Source of the DNA: Escherichia phage E212
DNA: 38,252 nucleotides
Reading direction: 5' to 3' (one strand)
Sequence record: MZ043897.1
In this document: piece by piece, positions 10,568 to 15,336 of the stretch
Numbering within the stretch: the stretch's first letter is position 1
Layout of the letters: every line of letters starts with the position of its first letter
Translations under genes and position numbers: made by a program
The notes under the pieces: model-generated
The model's database searches: none
The model's input: only the letters and a program-made list of their open reading frames with translations
What the model was told of the DNA's origin: nothing

Positions 10568-10752
10568 ACGCCACAATTCAAACGATACCAGAACTTCTTA
10601 TCCAGACACGAGGCAATCAGACCGAAGTGGCGAGGAGGCTTTCCTGTGCAAGAGGAACAGTGCTCAAGTACAACAGAGACAGCAAAGGCGAGCGTCACGC
10701 AATAGTTAACGGCGTCCTGATAGTCAAACAGGGCAAGAGGGGAAGACGATGA
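10564..10752 (+). CDS. ninH: NinH
   Basis: TIPELLIQTRGNQTEVARRLSCARGTVLKY matches lambda NinH. Confidence 0.8.
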   Translation: MNATIQTIPELLIQTRGNQTEVARRLSCARGTVLKYNRDSKGERHAIVNGVLIVKQGKRGRR

Positions 10753-11372
10753 GACTCGAAAGCGTAGCTAAATTTCATTCTCCAAAAAGCCCGATGATGA
10801 GCGACTCACCACGGGCTACAGCTTCTGACTCTCTTTCCGGTACTGATGTGATGGCTGCTATGGGGATGGCGCAATCACAAGCCGGATTCGGTATGGCTGC
10901 ATTCTGCGGTAAGCATGAACTCAGCCAGAACGACAAACAAAAGGCTATCAACTATCTGATGCAATTTGCACACAAGGTATCGGGGAAATACCGTGGTGTG
11001 GCAAAGCTTGAAGGAAATACTAAGGCAAAGGTACTGCAAGTGCTCGCAACATTCGCTTATGCGGATTATTGCCGTAGTGCCGCGACGCCGGGCGCAAGAT
11101 GCAGAGATTGCCACGGTACAGGCCGTGCGGTTGATATATCAAAAACAGAGCTGTGGGGGAGAGTTGTTGAGAAAGAATGCGGAAGATGCAAAGGTGTCGG
11201 CTATTCAAGAATGCCAGCAAGCGCCGCATATCGCGCTGTAACGATGCTAATCCCAAATCTTACCCAACCAACCTGGTCACGCACTGTTAAGCCGCTGTAT
11301 GACGCTCTGGTGGTGCAATGCCACAAAGAAGAGTCAATCGCAGACAACATTTTGAATGCGGTCACACGTTAA
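10749..11372 (+). CDS. Q: Late gene antiterminator Q (lambda-type)
   Basis: 207-aa ORF essentially identical to lambda Q (MRLESVAKFHSPKSPMMSDSPRATASDSLSGTD...). Confidence 0.95.
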   Translation: MRLESVAKFHSPKSPMMSDSPRATASDSLSGTDVMAAMGMAQSQAGFGMAAFCGKHELSQNDKQKAINYLMQFAHKVSGKYRGVAKLEGNTKAKVLQVLATFAYADYCRSAATPGARCRDCHGTGRAVDISKTELWGRVVEKECGRCKGVGYSRMPASAAYRAVTMLIPNLTQPTWSRTVKPLYDALVVQCHKEESIADNILNAVTR

Positions 11373-11414
11373 CAGCATGATTGCCACGGATGGCAACATA
11401 TTAACGGCATAATA

Positions 11415-11443
11415 TTGACTTTTTGAATAAAGTTGGGTAAATT
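11415..11443 (+). promoter_or_regulatory. Late promoter pR' with overlapping qut site
   Basis: TTGACT, 17-bp spacer, TAAATT immediately downstream of Q, as in lambda. Confidence 0.8.
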
Positions 11444-11449
11444 TGACTC

Positions 11450-11642
11450 AACGATGGGTTAATTCGCTCGTTGTGGTAGTGAGATGAAAAGAGGCGGCGC
11501 TTACTACCGATTCCGCCTAGTTGGTCACTTCGACGTATCGTCTGGAACTCCAACCATCGCAGGCAGAGAGGTCTGCAAAATGCAATCCCGAAACAGTTCG
11601 CAGGTAATAGTTAGAGCCTGCATAACGGTTTCGGGATTTTTT
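11450..11642 (+). ncRNA. Short pR'-initiated leader transcript (lambda 6S RNA equivalent) ending at tR'
   Basis: About 190 nt between the pR' start and the tR' hairpin, no ORF, arrangement as in lambda. Confidence 0.55.
11587..11642 (+). terminator. tR' intrinsic terminator
   Basis: CCCGAAAC ... GTTTCGGG long hairpin followed by ATTTTTTAT. Confidence 0.8.
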
Positions 11643-12084
11643 ATATCTGCACAACAGGTAAGAGCATTGAACCCGCAGACCTCGCGGAATTGGTGAAAGG
11701 TGCCGCGCAGTGCTCTTATCGTTGTGGTGAATGCACAGGCTGATGTGTAAGGGCAAGAATCTTTCGCTGGATTCGGTGTGGCCACGTAGCCCGCTGTAGG
11801 CAGTTGCAGCAAACCGGAGATCAGCACCGGTCGCCACAATCCAAACTGAGCCGTAGCCACTGGCTATCCTGAATTCATCAGTGATAGTTACGCTGCGGCC
11901 TTCTACACATGATCTTCGTGAAAGCGGGCGGCATGAGGTTGCGCTAACAACCTCATGCCGTTTTGCCCGTGCATATCGGTCACGAACAAATCTGATTACT
12001 AAACACAGTAGCCTGGATTTGTTCTATCAGTAATCGACCTTATTCCTAATTAAATAGAGCAAATCCCCTTATTGGGGGTAAGAC

Positions 12085-12408
12085 ATGAAGATGCCAGAAA
12101 AACATGACCTGTTAGCCGCCATTCTCGCGGCAAAGGAACAAGGCATCGGGGCAATCCTTGCGTTTGCAATGGCGTACCTTCGCGGCAGATATAATGGCGG
12201 TGCGTTTACAAAAACAGTAATCGACGCAACGATGTGCGCCATTATCGCCTGGTTCATTCGTGACCTTCTCGACTTCGCCGGACTAAGTAGCAATCTCGCT
12301 TATATAACGAGCGTGTTCATCGGCTACATCGGTACTGACTCGATTGGTTCGCTTATCAAACGCTTCGCTGCTAAAAAAGCCGGAGTAGAAGATGGTGGAA
12401 ATCAATAA
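12085..12408 (+). CDS. S: Holin S (lambda-type, dual-start motif MKMPEK)
   Basis: 107-aa ORF matching lambda S107. Confidence 0.95.
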
Positions 12409-12868
12409 TCAACGTAAGGCGTTCCTCGATATGCTGGCGTGGTCAGAGGGAACTGATAACGGACGACAGAAAACCAGAAATCACGGTTATGACGTCATTG
12501 TTGGCGGAGAGCTATTCACTGATTACTCCGATCACCCTCGCAAACTTGTCACGCTAAACCCCAAACTCAAATCAACAGCAGCCGGACGTTACCAGCTTCT
12601 TTCCCGTTGGTGGGATGCTTACCGTAAGCAGCTTGGCCTGAAAGACTTCTCTCCCAAAAGCCAGGACGCTGTTGCGCTGCAGCAGATTAAGGAGCGTGGC
12701 GCTTTACCGATGATTGATCGCGGTGATATTCGTCAGGCAATCGACCGTTGCAGCAATATCTGGGCTTCACTGCCGGGGGCTGGTTATGGTCAGTTCGAGC
12801 ATAAGGCTGACAGCCTGATTGCAAAATTCAAAGAAGCTGGCGGAACGGTCAGAGAGATTGAGGTATGA
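12392..12868 (+). CDS. R: Endolysin R (lytic transglycosylase, lambda-type)
   Basis: 158-aa ORF matching lambda R. Confidence 0.95.
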
Positions 12869-13302
12869 GCAGAGTCACCGCGATTATCTCCGCTCTGGTT
12901 ATCTGCATCATCGTCTGCCTGTCGTGGGCGGTCAATCATTACCGTGATAACGCCATCGCCTATAAAGAGCAGCGCGATAAGGCCACATCCACAATCGCTG
13001 ACATGCAGAAGCGTCAACGTGATGTAGCAGAACTTGACGCCAGATACACAAAGGAGCTTGCTGATGCTAACGCGACTATCGAAAGTCTCCGTGCTGATGT
13101 TTCTGCTGGTCGTAAGCGCCTGCAAGTCGCCGCCATCTGTGCAAAGTCAACGACCGGAGCCAGCAGCATGGGCGATGGAGAAAGCCCAAGACTTACAGCA
13201 GATGCTGAACTCAATTATTACCGTCTCCGAAGTGGAATCGACAGGATAACCGCGCAGGTTAACTACCTGCAGGAGTACATCAGGACGCAATGCCTTCGAT
13301 GA
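12865..13302 (+). CDS. Rz: Rz i-spanin
   Basis: N-terminus [31 protein letters not shown] matches lambda Rz; C-terminal half diverged. Confidence 0.85.
13064..13249 (+). CDS. Rz1: Rz1 o-spanin lipoprotein embedded in the +1 frame of Rz
   Basis: [24 protein letters not shown]... signal peptide with lipobox-like VSAC and Pro-rich mature part, wholly inside Rz. Confidence 0.7.
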
Positions 13303-13475
13303 TAGCGATAATTTTACTCATCATCCTTCACATCTGGCTCTGTAGACAGGGTGATGATCACTTCTGGAGTGAATCCAGATTAAACATCTCATTGCTGATG
13401 CTTGATATTGAGCATCTGGCGCGCGGTAAGGGGCTGCGTTGAGATAAGAGCCAGTCATCAAAAACACCAGGATTT

Positions 13476-13500
13476 AGCCTCGCATTCGCGGGGCTTTTTT
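13476..13500 (+). terminator. Intrinsic terminator candidate downstream of the lysis cassette
   Basis: AGCCTCGC-ATTC-GCGGGGCT hairpin (one G-U pair) followed by TTTTTT. Confidence 0.55.
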
Positions 13501-13646
13501 ACATCTGCAGTAAACAGCGCATCGCAGCGCGTAACAATCCCGAGTCTTTCAGAAAGCTGAGCCTGAGAACTGCCGTATATGGTGGCGACCATCTCGGGGC
13601 GGCTTTTCTGTGCGAACAGGCTCATCTTTCTAAAAGGTAAGACGCT

Positions 13647-14168
13647 ATGAATATCGTTCCACTGAATTACAAAGGCGAACCTATCCGCTTCAATACGGAT
13701 GGCTGGATTAATGCCACTGATATTGCAAAACGTTTCGGGAAGCGTCTGGATCACTGGTTGTCCAACGCTGAAACTCTCGAATACGTTAGAGCTCTGGATG
13801 AGGTTTATTCAGGTGAACCATCGAAAATTCTACATACCCGTGATTCCGGGTATGTAAAAACAAGCAAGGCACGAAAGGACAGGGGAGGCGGAACATGGCT
13901 GCACCCAAAGTTATCAGTTGCCTTTGCAAGATGGTGCGATCCGAAATTCTCCGTATGGTGCGACCTGCACATTGATAGTCTGCTTCGCGGTGAACTGACT
14001 GAGCAGCAGAAATATGAGCAAGCATGTCGCATTCGCGATGACCGGAAATCAAAAGCCAGCAATGGGGCAAGAGAGATGGCTCGCTGGCGATGGGATAAGC
14101 CGGTTATTGAAGCAAATGTCGAGTACTGGCGCGAGCAACTGCAGCTGACTCTCGATATCGCGTGCTGA
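13647..14168 (+). CDS. KilA-N domain protein (moron between lysis and packaging genes)
   Basis: 173-aa ORF; N-terminal GWINATDIAKRFGKRLDHWL ... GTWLHPKLSVAFARWCDPKFSVWCD pattern typical of KilA-N domains. Confidence 0.6.
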   Translation: MNIVPLNYKGEPIRFNTDGWINATDIAKRFGKRLDHWLSNAETLEYVRALDEVYSGEPSKILHTRDSGYVKTSKARKDRGGGTWLHPKLSVAFARWCDPKFSVWCDLHIDSLLRGELTEQQKYEQACRIRDDRKSKASNGAREMARWRWDKPVIEANVEYWREQLQLTLDIAC

Positions 14169-14525
14169 TGGCAAACGCAAAACTGCGTTATCGGAAAAAT
14201 CAAAGCATTACGAGAACTGAGCAACAGCTATCCATTACAAAGCCCATCTACGGGTGGGCTTGATAATGAAACCGGAATTTATTCTGGGAAACCAGTTACG
14301 GCAGTACAGCGAAACAACCCAAGCCAGTAAGTGGGGAAATAACACTGGCAGCCACTGAAAGATGAACCTCCTGCCTTATGGCAAAAAAGATTCTTTGTGG
14401 TGGCGGACTGATGGAAAGACATCGGTTATTGCAGAGACCATTCAATGAGTGGTCTCGACAATGGCTTATACCCTACACGGGATAACTTAACTGATATCCC
14501 TTTTAACGGATAAACGGAGCCAACA

Positions 14526-14768
14526 ATGGCAGAGATTATTCCCATGACTGAAGAACAGAAATTCCAGCTAGAGATTTACAAACTGGTCATGAACCAGAAC
14601 GCAGCCGCAGAAGAAGCATTTCAGTTCATTGGCACTGACGAGCTGAAGCTTGAGCTATTCAAAATTCACTTCCAGTCAGGCGGCGCTAATTCAGATATCA
14701 CGACCCGCACAATCGAAGCGGTGCGTAAATCGAAGGAAGCGTTAGACCTGTTCACTACCGGAGCATAA
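14526..14768 (+). CDS. Hypothetical protein (80 aa) upstream of the small terminase gene
   Basis: ORF in the position P22-like genomes reserve for a small conserved ORF ahead of gene 3. Confidence 0.5.
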   Translation: MAEIIPMTEEQKFQLEIYKLVMNQNAAAEEAFQFIGTDELKLELFKIHFQSGGANSDITTRTIEAVRKSKEALDLFTTGA

Positions 14769-14847
14769 ACATGGCAACTCAAGGTTTCGACAACCCATCC
14801 AAATTCCGCGATGAATGGGATAAGCAAGCAGAAGGGAAATAATCAAT

Positions 14848-15336
14848 ATGGCAGCACCAAAGGGCAACCGATTTTGGGAGGCCCGCAGTAGTCATGGGCG
14901 AAATCCTAAATTCGAATCGCCTGAGGCGCTGTGGGCTGCTTGTTGTGAATACTTCGAGTGGGCTGATGATAACCCGCTATGGGAGGGTAAGGTATTTTCA
15001 TATCAGGGAGAAATAATTAAGGCTAATGTCCCTAAGATGCGAGCCATGACTATTTCAGGATTGTGTACCTTCCTTGATATCACCAGGCAAACATGGGGAA
15101 CCTTCCGGTCAATGGAAGGTTTTTCTGACGTCACATCACGAGCGGAAGACATCATCTACGACCAGAAATTCTCTGGCGCAGCCGCTGACCTTCTCAACGC
15201 TAACATCATCGCCCGTGATTTGGGCCTCAAAGAGCAGTCGCAAGTTGAAGACGTGACACCTGATAAGGGAGATCGCGATAAGCGGCGCTCTCGTATCAAG
15301 GAGCTATTCAACCGTGGAACTGGACGCGATTCTTGA
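14848..15336 (+). CDS. Terminase small subunit (P22 gp3-like)
   Basis: 162-aa [51 protein letters not shown]... closely matches P22 gp3. Confidence 0.85.

What the first reader, a model, noticed from the sequence alone, without database searches (positions are those of the whole stretch)
13476..14168. KilA-N domain moron after the lysis cassette, downstream of a terminator
The 173-aa KilA-N ORF occupies the slot where lambda carries bor. It is preceded by a hairpin-plus-T-tract terminator (13476-13500) and a 150-bp spacer, which suggests an independently expressed moron. The function of stand-alone KilA-N proteins is poorly defined.
Basis: partly seen in the sequence, partly recalled or inferred. 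Interest (0 to 1): 0.45.

Follow-up and report, generated by a model that had tools for sequence, protein, structure and literature searches.

The report
Swappable phage gene behind conserved RNA leader
The KilA-N gene and the terminator are real, but the terminator and 146-base spacer are not this gene's own control region: they form a conserved, structured RNA leader that sits after the lysis genes of many lambda-like phages and precedes interchangeable DNA-binding or nuclease genes.

Summary
A 173-aa KilA-N ORF lies at 13647-14168 (Pfam E 2.8e-24). An intrinsic terminator lies at 13476-13501. The spacer between them is 146 nt.

The "independently expressed moron" reading is not supported. 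No sigma-70-like promoter lies in the spacer and no terminator follows the gene. The gene is co-oriented inside a lambda-type late operon (Q, then a PR'-like promoter).

Terminator plus spacer form a conserved ~175-nt module found in 167 phage records and at least 120 IMG/VR contigs. In 102 of 121 cases it follows Rz. The gene after it varies: Rha (72), KilA-N (45), T5orf172/GIY-YIG (8), HNH+AP2 (6) and others. Homology to the Rha and GIY-YIG phages breaks 2-4 nt after the ATG.

The spacer folds into a long hairpin supported by covariation: 91.7% of cells paired against 33-52% in slid controls, and 20 pairs with compensatory changes against 3-6. Its base pairs with the Shine-Dalgarno sequence. 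Rfam has no matching family.

Best reading: a late-operon "Bro-network" accessory gene, a Rha analogue, kept under tight control by a portable terminator plus translation-lock leader. The gene is ordinary. The leader is a candidate new cis-regulatory RNA motif. The protein's role remains inferred.

The parts
10749..11372 (+). Context: lambda-type late antiterminator Q
   Evidence: Pfam Antiterm PF03589, E 1.2e-57.
11415..11443 (+). Context: PR'-like late promoter (TTGACT-17-TAAATT)
   Evidence: The only sigma-70-like site in 11300-12200. The hexamers match lambda PR' as I recall it.
12865..13302 (+). Context: Rz spanin, last gene of the lysis cassette (Rz1 embedded at 13034-13249)
   Evidence: Pfam Phage_lysis, E 2.1e-36. 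In 102 of 121 leader instances an Rz-like gene ends a median of 137 nt upstream of the leader core.
13290..13442 (+). Conserved 50-aa ORF with a hydrophobic N-terminus, between Rz and the terminator. Present only in some phages.
   Evidence: phrog_11822, E 5.5e-38. Annotated as a hypothetical protein in Sf101, epsilon34 (gp67, Sf6 gp65-like) and CurroJimenez. Absent in HK544, Emek and ABTNLsp11242, where the terminator follows Rz directly.
13476..13501 (+). T1: intrinsic terminator, the first element of the conserved leader module
   Evidence: 8-bp stem (6 G-C) plus U6. Compensatory changes across phages (columns 12-29). Annotated as a terminator in 5 phage records.
13517..13530 (+). H2: small conserved hairpin GCGC-AUCGCA-GCGC
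   Evidence: Helix 1: 100% of cells paired, 3 of 4 pairs with changes on both sides (GC to AU, CG to UA).
13545..13637 (+). Long leader hairpin. P0 13545-13549/13633-13637 (anti-SD/SD); P1 13551-13565/13617-13631; P2 13566-13569/13606-13609; P3 13572-13575/13600-13603; P4 13580-13583/13588-13591, loop GGCG.
   Evidence: MFE -40.2 kcal/mol, z -3.0 against shuffles. Covariation. The duplex is kept in all 46 P1 sequence variants. G-U pairs place the structure on the + strand RNA.
13633..13638 (+). Shine-Dalgarno sequence (AAAGGU), 9 nt before the AUG, at the base of the hairpin
   Evidence: Predicted unpaired probability 0.07-0.28 per base in the window. The median of the mean unpaired probability of the 4-base SD core is 0.04 over 95 unique leaders. 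P0 pairs vary with compensation (columns 83-87/233-239).
13647..14168 (+). KilA-N ORF, 173 aa. KilA-N domain at residues 7-114 (nt 13665-13988). C-terminal helical hairpin (ORF11CD3-like) at residues ~118-170 (nt 13998-14156).
13652..14290 (+). The segment actually specific to the KilA-N allele: the ORF plus 122 nt of 3' flank
   Evidence: Homology to Sf101 (Rha) and epsilon34 (GIY-YIG) ends at 13651/13653 and resumes at 14291/14298.
14291..14525 (+). Conserved, apparently non-coding 3' frame of the slot, shared with phages that carry other cargo
   Evidence: 93-98% identical to mEp234, HK106, HK022, Sf6 and epsilon34. Only ORFs shorter than 50 aa here. Annotated in epsilon34 as a remnant of ST64T orf118.

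Best explanation
The KilA-N gene is one allele of a hot-swappable accessory slot at the 3' end of the lysis cassette of a P22-like lambdoid phage. It is transcribed as part of the Q-dependent late operon, not from a promoter of its own.

The terminator (T1) and the 146-nt spacer form a conserved, portable cis-regulatory leader.
- T1 stops any RNA polymerase that is not Q-modified (inferred).
- The spacer RNA folds into a ~90-nt rod-like hairpin whose base pairs with the Shine-Dalgarno sequence. Translation of whatever gene follows would then be throttled (structure shown by covariation; effect on translation inferred).

Cargo genes are exchanged by recombination between the conserved leader, right up to the ATG, and a conserved 3' region. 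This explains why the same leader precedes Rha, KilA-N, T5orf172/GIY-YIG, HNH+AP2 and ANT genes.

The protein has a KilA-N (APSES-like) DNA-binding domain plus a C-terminal helical hairpin that it shares at profile level with the Rha proteins of the same slot. It is therefore most likely a functional analogue of P22/phi80 Rha: a late-made, dose-sensitive DNA-binding 'Bro-network' protein. What it targets is unknown.
For: Shown by tool results:
- Gene and domain.
- Late-operon context, with lambda-type Q and a PR'-like promoter upstream on the same strand.
- No promoter-like site on the + strand in 12800-15000 and no terminator after the gene.
- The leader is shared at 97-98% identity with the Rha and GIY-YIG alleles, with the breakpoint at the ATG.
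- The leader occurs in 167 phage records and in at least 120 IMG/VR contigs.
- Cargo census over 139 leader instances: Rha 72, KilA-N 45, T5orf172 8, HNH+AP2 6, long Rha 3, ANT 2; 3 had no cargo ORF called.
- Leader subtypes A, B and C each precede Rha, KilA-N and nuclease-type cargo, so leader and cargo assort independently.
- 102 of 121 leaders lie just after an Rz-like gene.
- Covariation: 91.7% of cells paired against 33-52% when slid; 20 pairs with changes on both sides against 3-6; 0 of 500 shuffles reach the observed score. An independent MAFFT/RNAalifold run gave 10 of 27 pairs with compensation.
- Hairpin z-score -3.0.
- SD predicted mostly paired.
- AF2 model, pLDDT 87, with an N-terminal domain plus a helical hairpin; the best PDB folds are the Mbp1 and PCG2 APSES DNA-binding domains.
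- C-terminus aligns to the Rha cargo C-terminus, hhalign E 1.6e-5; phrog_518 'Rha-like regulator' E 2.3e-8 over residues 118-170.

From the literature:
- Bro-network domain swapping among KilA-N, ORF11CD3, Phage_pRha and ANT: PMC10111431.
- P22/phi80 rha is a late-operon gene that is detrimental without IHF: cited in PMC4936722.
- RBS-sequestering hairpins restrain selfish nuclease genes in T4: PMC2988022.
Against: - No expression data exist for this locus. Read-through of T1 by Q-modified polymerase is inferred from textbook lambda biology, not tested here.
- The consensus scan can miss weak or activator-dependent promoters.
- Predicted SD accessibility (0.15) is only at the 20th percentile of other genes in the window by a crude measure. 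Occlusion is therefore plausible but not exceptional.
- In the model-fitted alignment, about 20 type-C sequences are mis-registered in P1 ('other' cells).
- Pairwise BLASTP of KilA-N against Rha is not significant. The window protein's own ORF11CD3 score (16.5 bits) is below Pfam's cut-off of 25.
- The fold matches to APSES domains are weak (E about 0.1).
- The protein's function is purely by analogy.
Confidence: 0.6

Rival explanations
1. Classical moron. KilA-N is expressed on its own in the lysogen from a promoter in the 146-nt spacer. The upstream terminator insulates it from the late operon, and it gives the host or prophage a fitness trait.
For: The gene is variable among related phages. 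An upstream terminator exists. Accessory genes in this area of lambda, such as bor, are expressed in lysogens (PMC7067206 introduction).
Against: No promoter-like site was found. No -10 or -35 element is conserved in 77 aligned leaders; in HK639 and ENT1 only 'AT' separates T1 from H2. There is no downstream terminator. The same leader precedes nuclease-type genes that are unlikely lysogenic-conversion factors. The spacer is a paired RNA structure that occludes the SD.
Confidence: 0.1
2. Selfish mobile cassette. Leader plus ORF is a unit that spreads among co-infecting or resident lambdoid phages by homing-like or marker-exclusion mechanisms. KilA-N/ORF11CD3 would be a nuclease-less or DNA-targeting member, with little benefit to the phage. 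The leader exists to minimise cost to the carrier.
For: Cargo includes HNH_3+AP2 and T5orf172/GIY-YIG-type nucleases. Divergent second leader copies occur in tandem behind a first cassette (L031, L099) and upstream of Ant inside a Stx-phage lysis cassette (L009:145-293). Leader and cargo assort independently. T4 free-standing homing endonucleases use RBS-sequestering hairpins (PMC2988022). [quoted passage not shown]
Against: KilA-N+ORF11CD3 has no recognisable nuclease domain. Exchange is equally explained by ordinary homologous recombination in the conserved flanks. No cleavage site or homing has been demonstrated.
Confidence: 0.18
3. Anti-phage defence or superinfection exclusion protein of the BstA type: a KilA-N protein that aborts infection by competitors.
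For: BstA has a KilA-N-like N-terminal domain and is prophage-encoded (PMC8585504). A weak PADLOC hit to the candidate PDC-S22, E 3.4e-6 over about 30 residues.
Against: The protein is 173 aa with an ORF11CD3-type C-terminus. [quoted passage not shown] No named defence system was hit in PADLOC. Its position in the late operon behind a terminator argues against expression in the lysogen, which a prophage defence protein needs.
Confidence: 0.06
4. The conserved hairpin is mainly a processing or stability element rather than a translational lock. For example, an RNase III site could separate lysis and packaging mRNAs, or cleavage could activate translation. Alternatively it is a DNA-level recombination site for cassette exchange.
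For: A rod of about 31 bp with bulges is the kind of substrate RNase III uses. Cleavage of a leader hairpin that masks the SD activates lambda N synthesis (from my own knowledge). The apical part (P2-P4) varies freely while staying paired. The inverted core CCUUUCAG...CUGAAAGG lies at the base and cassettes occur in tandem.
Against: None of this was tested. G-U pairs favour an RNA-level rather than a DNA-level structure. No recombinase is linked to the element. Processing and SD masking are not mutually exclusive.
Confidence: 0.15

Closest known systems
P22 / phi80 Rha (P22 orf201), a Phage_pRha protein of the late operon
   Same: Same slot (Rz, then leader, then gene). The same conserved terminator plus leader is present in P22 itself (L008). 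Shared C-terminal ORF11CD3-type helical region at profile level. Similar size.
   Different: The N-terminal DNA-binding domain is KilA-N, not Phage_pRha. The Rha phenotype (block of phage growth in IHF-deficient hosts; cited in PMC4936722) has not been tested for KilA-N.
Pseudomonas phage D3 Orf11 and the 'Bro network' of shuffled phage regulator domains (Iyer, Koonin and Aravind 2002, from memory; PMC10111431)
   Same: The same KilA-N + ORF11CD3 architecture. The Emek annotation names D3 Orf11 as a homolog. Homologs at 48-60% identity occur in Pseudomonas and other genera.
   Different: Nothing beyond sequence divergence. The family has no assigned function.
RBS-sequestering hairpins of T4-type homing endonuclease genes (I-TevI, segB, mobE; PMC2988022)
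   Same: A stable hairpin immediately 5' of an accessory or selfish gene inside a phage operon, with the SD in the stem. Part of the cargo here is HNH or GIY-YIG-like.
   Different: No internal late promoter that would bypass the hairpin was found. Here the hairpin is one conserved, portable sequence family combined with an upstream intrinsic terminator, not an idiosyncratic structure for each gene.
lambda bor / classical morons (Juhala and Hendrix definition, as restated in PMC2629481)
   Same: Position after the lysis genes. Presence or absence varies among related phages. Dispensable for morphogenesis.
   Different: Co-oriented with the late operon. No promoter of its own and no downstream terminator.
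BstA abortive-infection proteins (PMC8585504)
   Same: KilA-N(-like) N-terminal domain; prophage-borne.
   Different: BstA has a second, separate C-terminal domain. The protein here has instead a 55-aa helical hairpin and sits in the late operon.
Regulatory RNAs linked to antirepressor or Bro genes (P1/P7 C4, P4 CI/seqA, Gifsy-1 IsrK; PMC10111431, PMC4825925)
   Same: A terminator plus structured leader upstream of a Bro-network or antirepressor-type gene. Read-through mRNA is translationally inactive in the IsrK case.
   Different: No Rfam C4, isrK or any other family matches, even at E up to 10. No trans-acting partner has been identified.

Membership tests
KilA-N domain (Pfam PF04383) | Profile match above the curated cut-off | tested here: met
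   85.5 bits against a cut-off of 23.8, E 2.8e-24, residues 7-114.
KilA-N domain (Pfam PF04383) | APSES-like DNA-binding fold | tested here: inconclusive
   AF2 pLDDT 87. The top Foldseek PDB hits are the Mbp1 and PCG2 APSES domains, but only at E about 0.1 and target-normalised TM-score 0.36-0.38.
KilA-N domain (Pfam PF04383) | Binds DNA | not testable with these tools
   Needs EMSA, DAP-seq or ChIP-seq.
ORF11CD3 domain (Pfam PF10549) | Profile match above the curated cut-off | tested here: inconclusive
   The window protein alone scores 16.5 bits, below the cut-off of 25. The 99%-identical cluster P0001 and nearly all listed homologs carry a precomputed PF10549 hit. hhalign to the Rha+ORF11CD3 cargo gives E 1.6e-5.
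Moron (independently expressed insert in a phage operon) | Present in some related phages and absent or replaced in others | tested here: met
   Rha, GIY-YIG and other genes occupy the same slot.
Moron (independently expressed insert in a phage operon) | Own promoter upstream of the gene | tested here: not met
   No sigma-70-like site on the + strand in 12800-15000. No conserved promoter hexamers in 77 leaders. This consensus scan cannot exclude weak promoters.
Moron (independently expressed insert in a phage operon) | Own terminator downstream of the gene | tested here: not met
   No + strand terminator-like site between 14168 and 14900.
Moron (independently expressed insert in a phage operon) | Expressed from the repressed prophage | not testable with these tools
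   Needs RNA-seq or TSS mapping of a lysogen.
Rho-independent terminator | G+C-rich hairpin followed directly by a U-tract | tested here: met
   Stem 13476-13495 (8 bp, 6 G-C) plus U6.
Rho-independent terminator | Structure conserved through compensatory change | tested here: met
   Columns 15-18/23-26 have 1-3 sequences each with both sides changed.
Rha (Phage_pRha PF09669) | N-terminal Phage_pRha domain | tested here: not met
   No PF09669 hit at E up to 0.1. It works in the same slot but is not a family member.
BstA abortive-infection family | Two-domain protein with a BstA-specific C-terminal domain and a match to a defence-system model | tested here: not met
   173 aa with an ORF11CD3-like C-terminus. 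PADLOC gives only a weak 30-residue hit to PDC-S22. BstA's two-domain description is from PMC8585504.
RBS-sequestering leader hairpin (T4 homing-endonuclease type) | Shine-Dalgarno sequence base-paired in a stable hairpin | tested here: met
   In prediction only. P0 pairs 13545-13549 with 13633-13637. SD unpaired probability is 0.07-0.28 in the window and the median is 0.04 in 95 leaders. Covariation at P0. Not exceptional against other genes in the window.
RBS-sequestering leader hairpin (T4 homing-endonuclease type) | Internal promoter that yields a transcript lacking the 5' arm | tested here: not met
   No promoter-like site inside the hairpin.
Known RNA families (Rfam 15, including C4 and isrK) | Covariance-model match | tested here: not met
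   Nothing near a gathering score. The best hit is 15 bits against cut-offs of 41-70.

The most novel reading that the evidence does not exclude
The terminator plus hairpin leader is an undescribed, widespread class of portable cis-regulatory RNA. It defines promoterless 'late-operon gene cassettes' for Bro-network and homing-nuclease-type genes in lambdoid phages, including P22 and Stx phages. It would keep these dose-sensitive genes doubly locked, by termination and by SD masking, until a specific cue opens the lock. Candidate cues are Q-modified polymerase together with RNase III cleavage, a trans-acting RNA, or a host factor such as IHF. Its conserved sequence would also serve as the recombination joint that lets cargo be swapped exactly at the start codon.
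Probability: 0.3. Interest if true: 0.65.

Novelty: new variant of a known kind. Interest (0 to 1): 0.42.

Why it matters
The gene alone is routine: an already-annotated KilA-N protein found in about 3% of complete E. coli genomes.

The useful result is the reframing. A feature that looks like a private insulator for one gene is a conserved RNA leader shared by hundreds of lambdoid phages. These include the model phage P22 and Shiga-toxin phages.

The leader marks a slot where DNA-binding and nuclease genes are exchanged exactly at the start codon. If it is a terminator plus translation lock, three things follow.
- It explains how phages tolerate potentially toxic Bro-network genes inside their late operon.
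- It gives a concrete handle on the old, unexplained Rha/IHF phenotype.
- It offers a simple sequence tag for finding such accessory cassettes in prophages. It also corrects start-codon and spurious-ORF annotations.

Tried and rejected
- Rfam scans of 11300-15000 (E up to 1) and 13440-13700 (E up to 10) found no family.
- NCBIfam gave no hit. A PDB sequence search gave nothing meaningful.
- The promoter scan found none on the + strand. Manual inspection of aligned leaders found no conserved hexamers.
- Pairwise BLASTP of KilA-N against Sf101 Rha was not significant. Only profile methods link the C-termini.
- IHF consensus WATCARNNNNTTR: one site at 14198-14210, just after the stop codon. The 6 sites in the window against 4 expected are not above chance. 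None lies in the leader, so this gives no support for an IHF link.
- P3/P4 plus UUUUCU as a second terminator: rejected. The U-run is not conserved and instead covaries as the 3' strand of P2 (AGAA/UUCU, AGGA/UCCU, GGGAAA/UUUCCC, GGCAAA/UUUGCC).
- SD accessibility compared with other genes in the window: low but not an outlier.
- The minus-strand ORF 13458-13754, annotated in some phages as hypothetical, is judged spurious because it overlaps the covarying RNA structure.
- The covariance-model alignment left type-C P1 arms one column out of register, so P1 support rests also on per-sequence duplex predictions.
- I could not obtain Henthorn and Friedman 1995 on rha/IHF. That work is cited only through PMC4936722.
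- An integron attC-like reading of the hairpin was considered but not tested.
Full report
**1. What is at the coordinates**

The window is a P22-like lambdoid phage genome.
- It encodes a P22-type portal, a gp3 small terminase and a large terminase.
- The stretch 13250-14600 is 100% identical to Escherichia phage EC.P3.
- The local order on the + strand is as follows.

| Feature | Coordinates |
|---|---|
| lambda-type Q | 10749-11372 |
| PR'-like promoter TTGACT-17-TAAATT | 11415-11443 |
| holin | 12085-12408 |
| endolysin | 12392-12868 |
| Rz (Rz1 embedded) | 12865-13302 |
| conserved 50-aa ORF | 13290-13442 |
| hairpin plus U6 | 13476-13501 |
| spacer | 146 nt |
| KilA-N ORF | 13647-14168 |
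| stretch without a credible ORF | about 355 nt |
| DUF2560 gene | 14526-14768 |
| small terminase | 14848-15336 |

**2. The gene**

- The 173-aa protein matches Pfam KilA-N over residues 7-114 (E 2.8e-24).
- It matches ORF11CD3 weakly at the C-terminus (E 0.01, below the cut-off).
- PHROGs places it in phrog_129 ('transcriptional regulator'). Its residues 118-170 also hit phrog_518, 'Rha-like transcriptional regulator' (E 2.3e-8).
- A search of 5.8 billion proteins found 509 homologs. Of the 120 listed, all carry KilA-N and nearly all also carry ORF11CD3. They come from enterobacteria, Pseudomonas and Halomonas, among others. None has a name more specific than 'KilA-N domain-containing' or 'DNA-binding protein'.
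- The Emek record names phage D3 Orf11 as a homolog. From memory, D3 Orf11 is the protein after which the ORF11CD3 domain was named.
- The gene is in 155 of 5426 complete E. coli genomes, always chromosomal.
- An AF2 model (pLDDT 87) shows an N-terminal alpha/beta domain (residues 1-113) and a C-terminal helical hairpin (119-137 and 141-172).
- The best PDB fold matches are the APSES DNA-binding domains of Mbp1 and PCG2. This fits the known KilA-N/APSES link, but the matches are statistically weak (E about 0.1).

As a protein, this is a known architecture of the 'Bro network' of shuffled phage regulator domains (PMC10111431).

**3. The terminator and spacer are not specific to KilA-N**

- Aligning the region upstream of the ATG showed the same terminator plus spacer, 97-98% identical, in front of Rha in Sf101 and of a GIY-YIG-type gene in epsilon34.
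- Pairwise BLAST places the breakpoints precisely. Sf101 and epsilon34 match the window from 12800 to 13651/13653, which is 2-4 nt past the ATG. The match resumes at 14291/14298.
- The segment truly specific to KilA-N is therefore 13652-14290.
- Conversely, Salmonella phages with a different Rz share 13477-14477 at 98.2%, starting exactly at the terminator.
- A blastn search with the 181-nt leader alone found it in 167 phage records. These include P22-like podoviruses, HK97-like and lambda-like siphoviruses, Stx1 and Stx2 phages, and Klebsiella, Enterobacter, Hafnia and Providencia phages.
- P22 itself carries it upstream of rha.

Across 139 leader instances, the ORF that starts at the leader's ATG is:

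| Cargo after the leader | Instances |
|---|---|
| Phage_pRha, with or without ORF11CD3 | 72 |
| KilA-N + ORF11CD3, or KilA-N + P63C | 45 |
| T5orf172/MUG113 (GIY-YIG-like) | 8 |
| HNH_3 + AP2 | 6 |
| longer Rha | 3 |
| protein ending in ANT/KilAC | 2 |
| no cargo ORF called | 3 |

- Leader sequence subtypes A, B and C each occur with Rha, with KilA-N and with nuclease-type cargo, so leader and cargo assort independently.
- In 102 of 121 instances with enough upstream sequence, an Rz-like gene ends a median of 137 nt before the leader core on the same strand.
- The downstream modules vary: P22-type terminase follows in only 13 of 75.

**4. The spacer is a structured RNA**

- The window's spacer folds into a long hairpin (13545-13637), -40.2 kcal/mol, z = -3.0 against dinucleotide shuffles.
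- From the 18- and 77-sequence alignments I defined these elements:
  - T1, the terminator.
  - H2: GCGC...GCGC.
  - P0: UCUUU pairing with AAAGG, which is the Shine-Dalgarno sequence.
  - P1: 15 nt per arm, with one internal mismatch.
  - P2: AGAA/UUCU.
  - P3: GCCG/CGGC.
  - P4: UGGU/ACCA, with loop GGCG.
- RNAalifold on an unfitted MAFFT alignment recovered T1, P2, P3 and P4. Ten of 27 predicted pairs had compensatory changes.
- I built a covariance model from my structure and used it to realign 86 matches. Counting on that alignment gave:

| Measure | Observed | Partner slid by 1-3 columns |
|---|---|---|
| Cells forming a standard pair | 91.7% | 33-52% |
| Pairs with changes on both sides | 20 | 3-6 |
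| Covariation score | 0.21 | 0.03-0.07 |

- No shuffle out of 500 reached the observed covariation score.
- The alignment is fitted to the model, so these numbers lean towards the structure. The unfitted result and the per-sequence duplex predictions agree with them: all 46 P1 variants keep a long duplex.
- P1 is entirely different in sequence between subtypes yet stays paired: AGAAAGCUGAGCCUG/CAGGCUCAUCUUUCU against GGAAUGGGCCUUUG/CAAAGGUUCAUUUC.
- Many pairs use G-U on the + strand. That fits an RNA read from the + strand and not a DNA cruciform.
- Rfam 15 has no family for this element. Four full-text searches aimed at the gene or the slot turned up no description of it.

**5. Divergent second copies**

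The model also found weaker copies (55-80 bits) elsewhere in some loci.
- One lies upstream of an Ant gene between the endolysin and Rz in the Stx phage Lyz12581Vzw (L009:145-293).
- Some lie in tandem directly after a first HNH+AP2 cassette (L031, L099), in front of a 141-aa protein that I did not scan against any domain library.
- Others precede HNH-type genes or proteins of unknown type (L048, L064, L020, L119).

These copies keep the frame: usually a terminator, then GCGC...GCGC, CCUUUCAG, the P1 arms, CUAAAAGG and ATG. Their apical parts are replaced, again with paired changes. The leader therefore behaves as a portable 5' module of accessory-gene cassettes. It is not merely a fixed feature of one position.

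**6. How it most likely works**

Shown:
- The gene lies inside a late operon headed by a lambda-type Q and a PR'-like promoter.
- An intrinsic terminator precedes it.
- A conserved RNA hairpin lies between the two, and its base pairs with the Shine-Dalgarno sequence. The predicted unpaired probability is 0.07-0.28 per base here, and the median for the SD core is 0.04 over 95 leaders.
- No promoter-like sequence lies in the spacer and no terminator follows the gene.

Inferred:
- Q-modified polymerase reads through T1, which is established lambda biology. KilA-N would then be made late in lytic growth and not in the lysogen.
- The hairpin limits translation.
- The combination exists because the cargo proteins are dose-sensitive or selfish.

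Precedents:
- P22/phi80 Rha, which sits behind the same leader, is a late-operon gene that blocks phage growth when IHF is missing (cited in PMC4936722).
- T4 restrains its free-standing and intron-borne homing endonuclease genes with RBS-sequestering hairpins (PMC2988022).
- Read-through past a terminator yields a translationally inactive mRNA at the isrK locus of Gifsy-1, whose anrP gene is one of those affected (PMC4825925).

Caveats:
- By a crude comparison, the SD of KilA-N is only at the 20th percentile of accessibility among genes of this window. The translational-lock idea rests more on conservation and covariation than on thermodynamics.
- How the lock would be opened is unknown. Candidates are RNase III cleavage of the rod (as in the lambda N leader, from memory), a trans-acting RNA, or nothing at all (constitutively low expression).
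- The shared C-terminal helical hairpin of the KilA-N and Rha cargo (hhalign E 1.6e-5) suggests the two are functional analogues with different DNA-binding heads. What they bind is not known.

**7.

- 'Moron' is right only in the loose sense of a variable accessory insert.
- The defining features of a classical moron were tested and not met at sequence level. These are a promoter of its own, a downstream terminator of its own, and expression from the prophage, as the term is used in PMC2629481.
- The terminator-plus-spacer argument for independence fails because that module is shared by unrelated cargo genes.
- A BstA-like defence role is unlikely. The protein is 173 aa with a different C-terminus, and PADLOC gives only a weak partial hit to a candidate family.

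**8. Novelty and score**

- The gene is already known and annotated.
- The conserved terminator plus hairpin leader, and the exact-ATG cargo swapping it frames, appear undescribed. I found nothing in Rfam or in the searchable literature.
- Mechanistically it would be a new variant of known kinds of control: intrinsic terminators inside antiterminated operons, and SD-masking leader hairpins.
- Interest is moderate (0.42). The finding as written is ordinary, and the leader is a worthwhile lead that simple experiments in P22 can test.

Noticed in passing
L008:1076 vs L008:1146 (P22 NC_002371, rha): The annotated GTG start of P22 rha (orf201) lies inside the conserved leader hairpin. The leader-consistent start is the ATG 70 nt downstream, preceded by GAAGG. 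The 201-aa annotation is therefore probably about 23 codons too long.
   Followed up: partly
window 13290-13442 (+): A conserved 50-aa ORF with a hydrophobic N-terminus ([18 protein letters not shown]...) overlaps the end of Rz by 13 nt. It matches phrog_11822 and is an Sf6 gp65 / epsilon34 gp67 homolog. It is present in some P22-likes and absent in others, where the terminator follows Rz directly. It may be a small membrane protein linked to lysis.
   Followed up: partly
window 14291-14525 (+): An apparently non-coding stretch of about 235 bp is 93-98% identical in phages with different cargo and different virion types (mEp234, HK022, HK106, Sf6, epsilon34). Parts are annotated elsewhere as a remnant of ST64T orf118. 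It forms the 3' conserved flank of the swap slot.
   Followed up: partly
L009:145-293 (Stx phage Lyz12581Vzw, NC_049917): A divergent second copy of the leader (73.7 bits) sits between the endolysin and Rz, directly upstream of an 'anti-repressor Ant' gene. A small annotated ORF (H3H22_gp17) lies within it and is probably spurious.
   Followed up: partly
L031:4555-4709(-) and L099:10360-10514(+) (IMG/VR contigs): Tandem cassettes in the order leader, HNH+AP2 gene, terminator, second divergent leader, 141-aa protein (not scanned against any domain library). This suggests arrays of leader-tagged accessory genes.
   Followed up: partly
window 13458-13754 (-): A 98-aa minus-strand ORF overlaps the leader. 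Its counterparts are annotated as hypothetical proteins in SPN3UB (F482_gp70) and ABTNLsp11242 (QXH32917). It is probably not a gene, since the region is a covarying + strand RNA structure.
   Followed up: no
window 14198-14210 (+): A perfect IHF consensus (AATCAAAGCATTA) lies 30 nt after the KilA-N stop codon, in the cargo-specific 3' flank. The 6 sites in the window against 4 expected are not above chance. It is of interest only because rha is reported to be IHF-regulated.
   Followed up: partly
window 13647-13652 and aligned loci: Conservation runs into the second codon. KilA-N, Rha and GIY-YIG cargo nearly all begin ATG AAY (Met-Asn). The recombination joint or translation-initiation context therefore extends just past the start codon.
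   Followed up: no
NZ_CP065613.1 (E. coli FDAARGOS_944): This genome has five separate matches to the KilA-N gene, suggesting several prophages with the same cargo allele in one strain.
   Followed up: no
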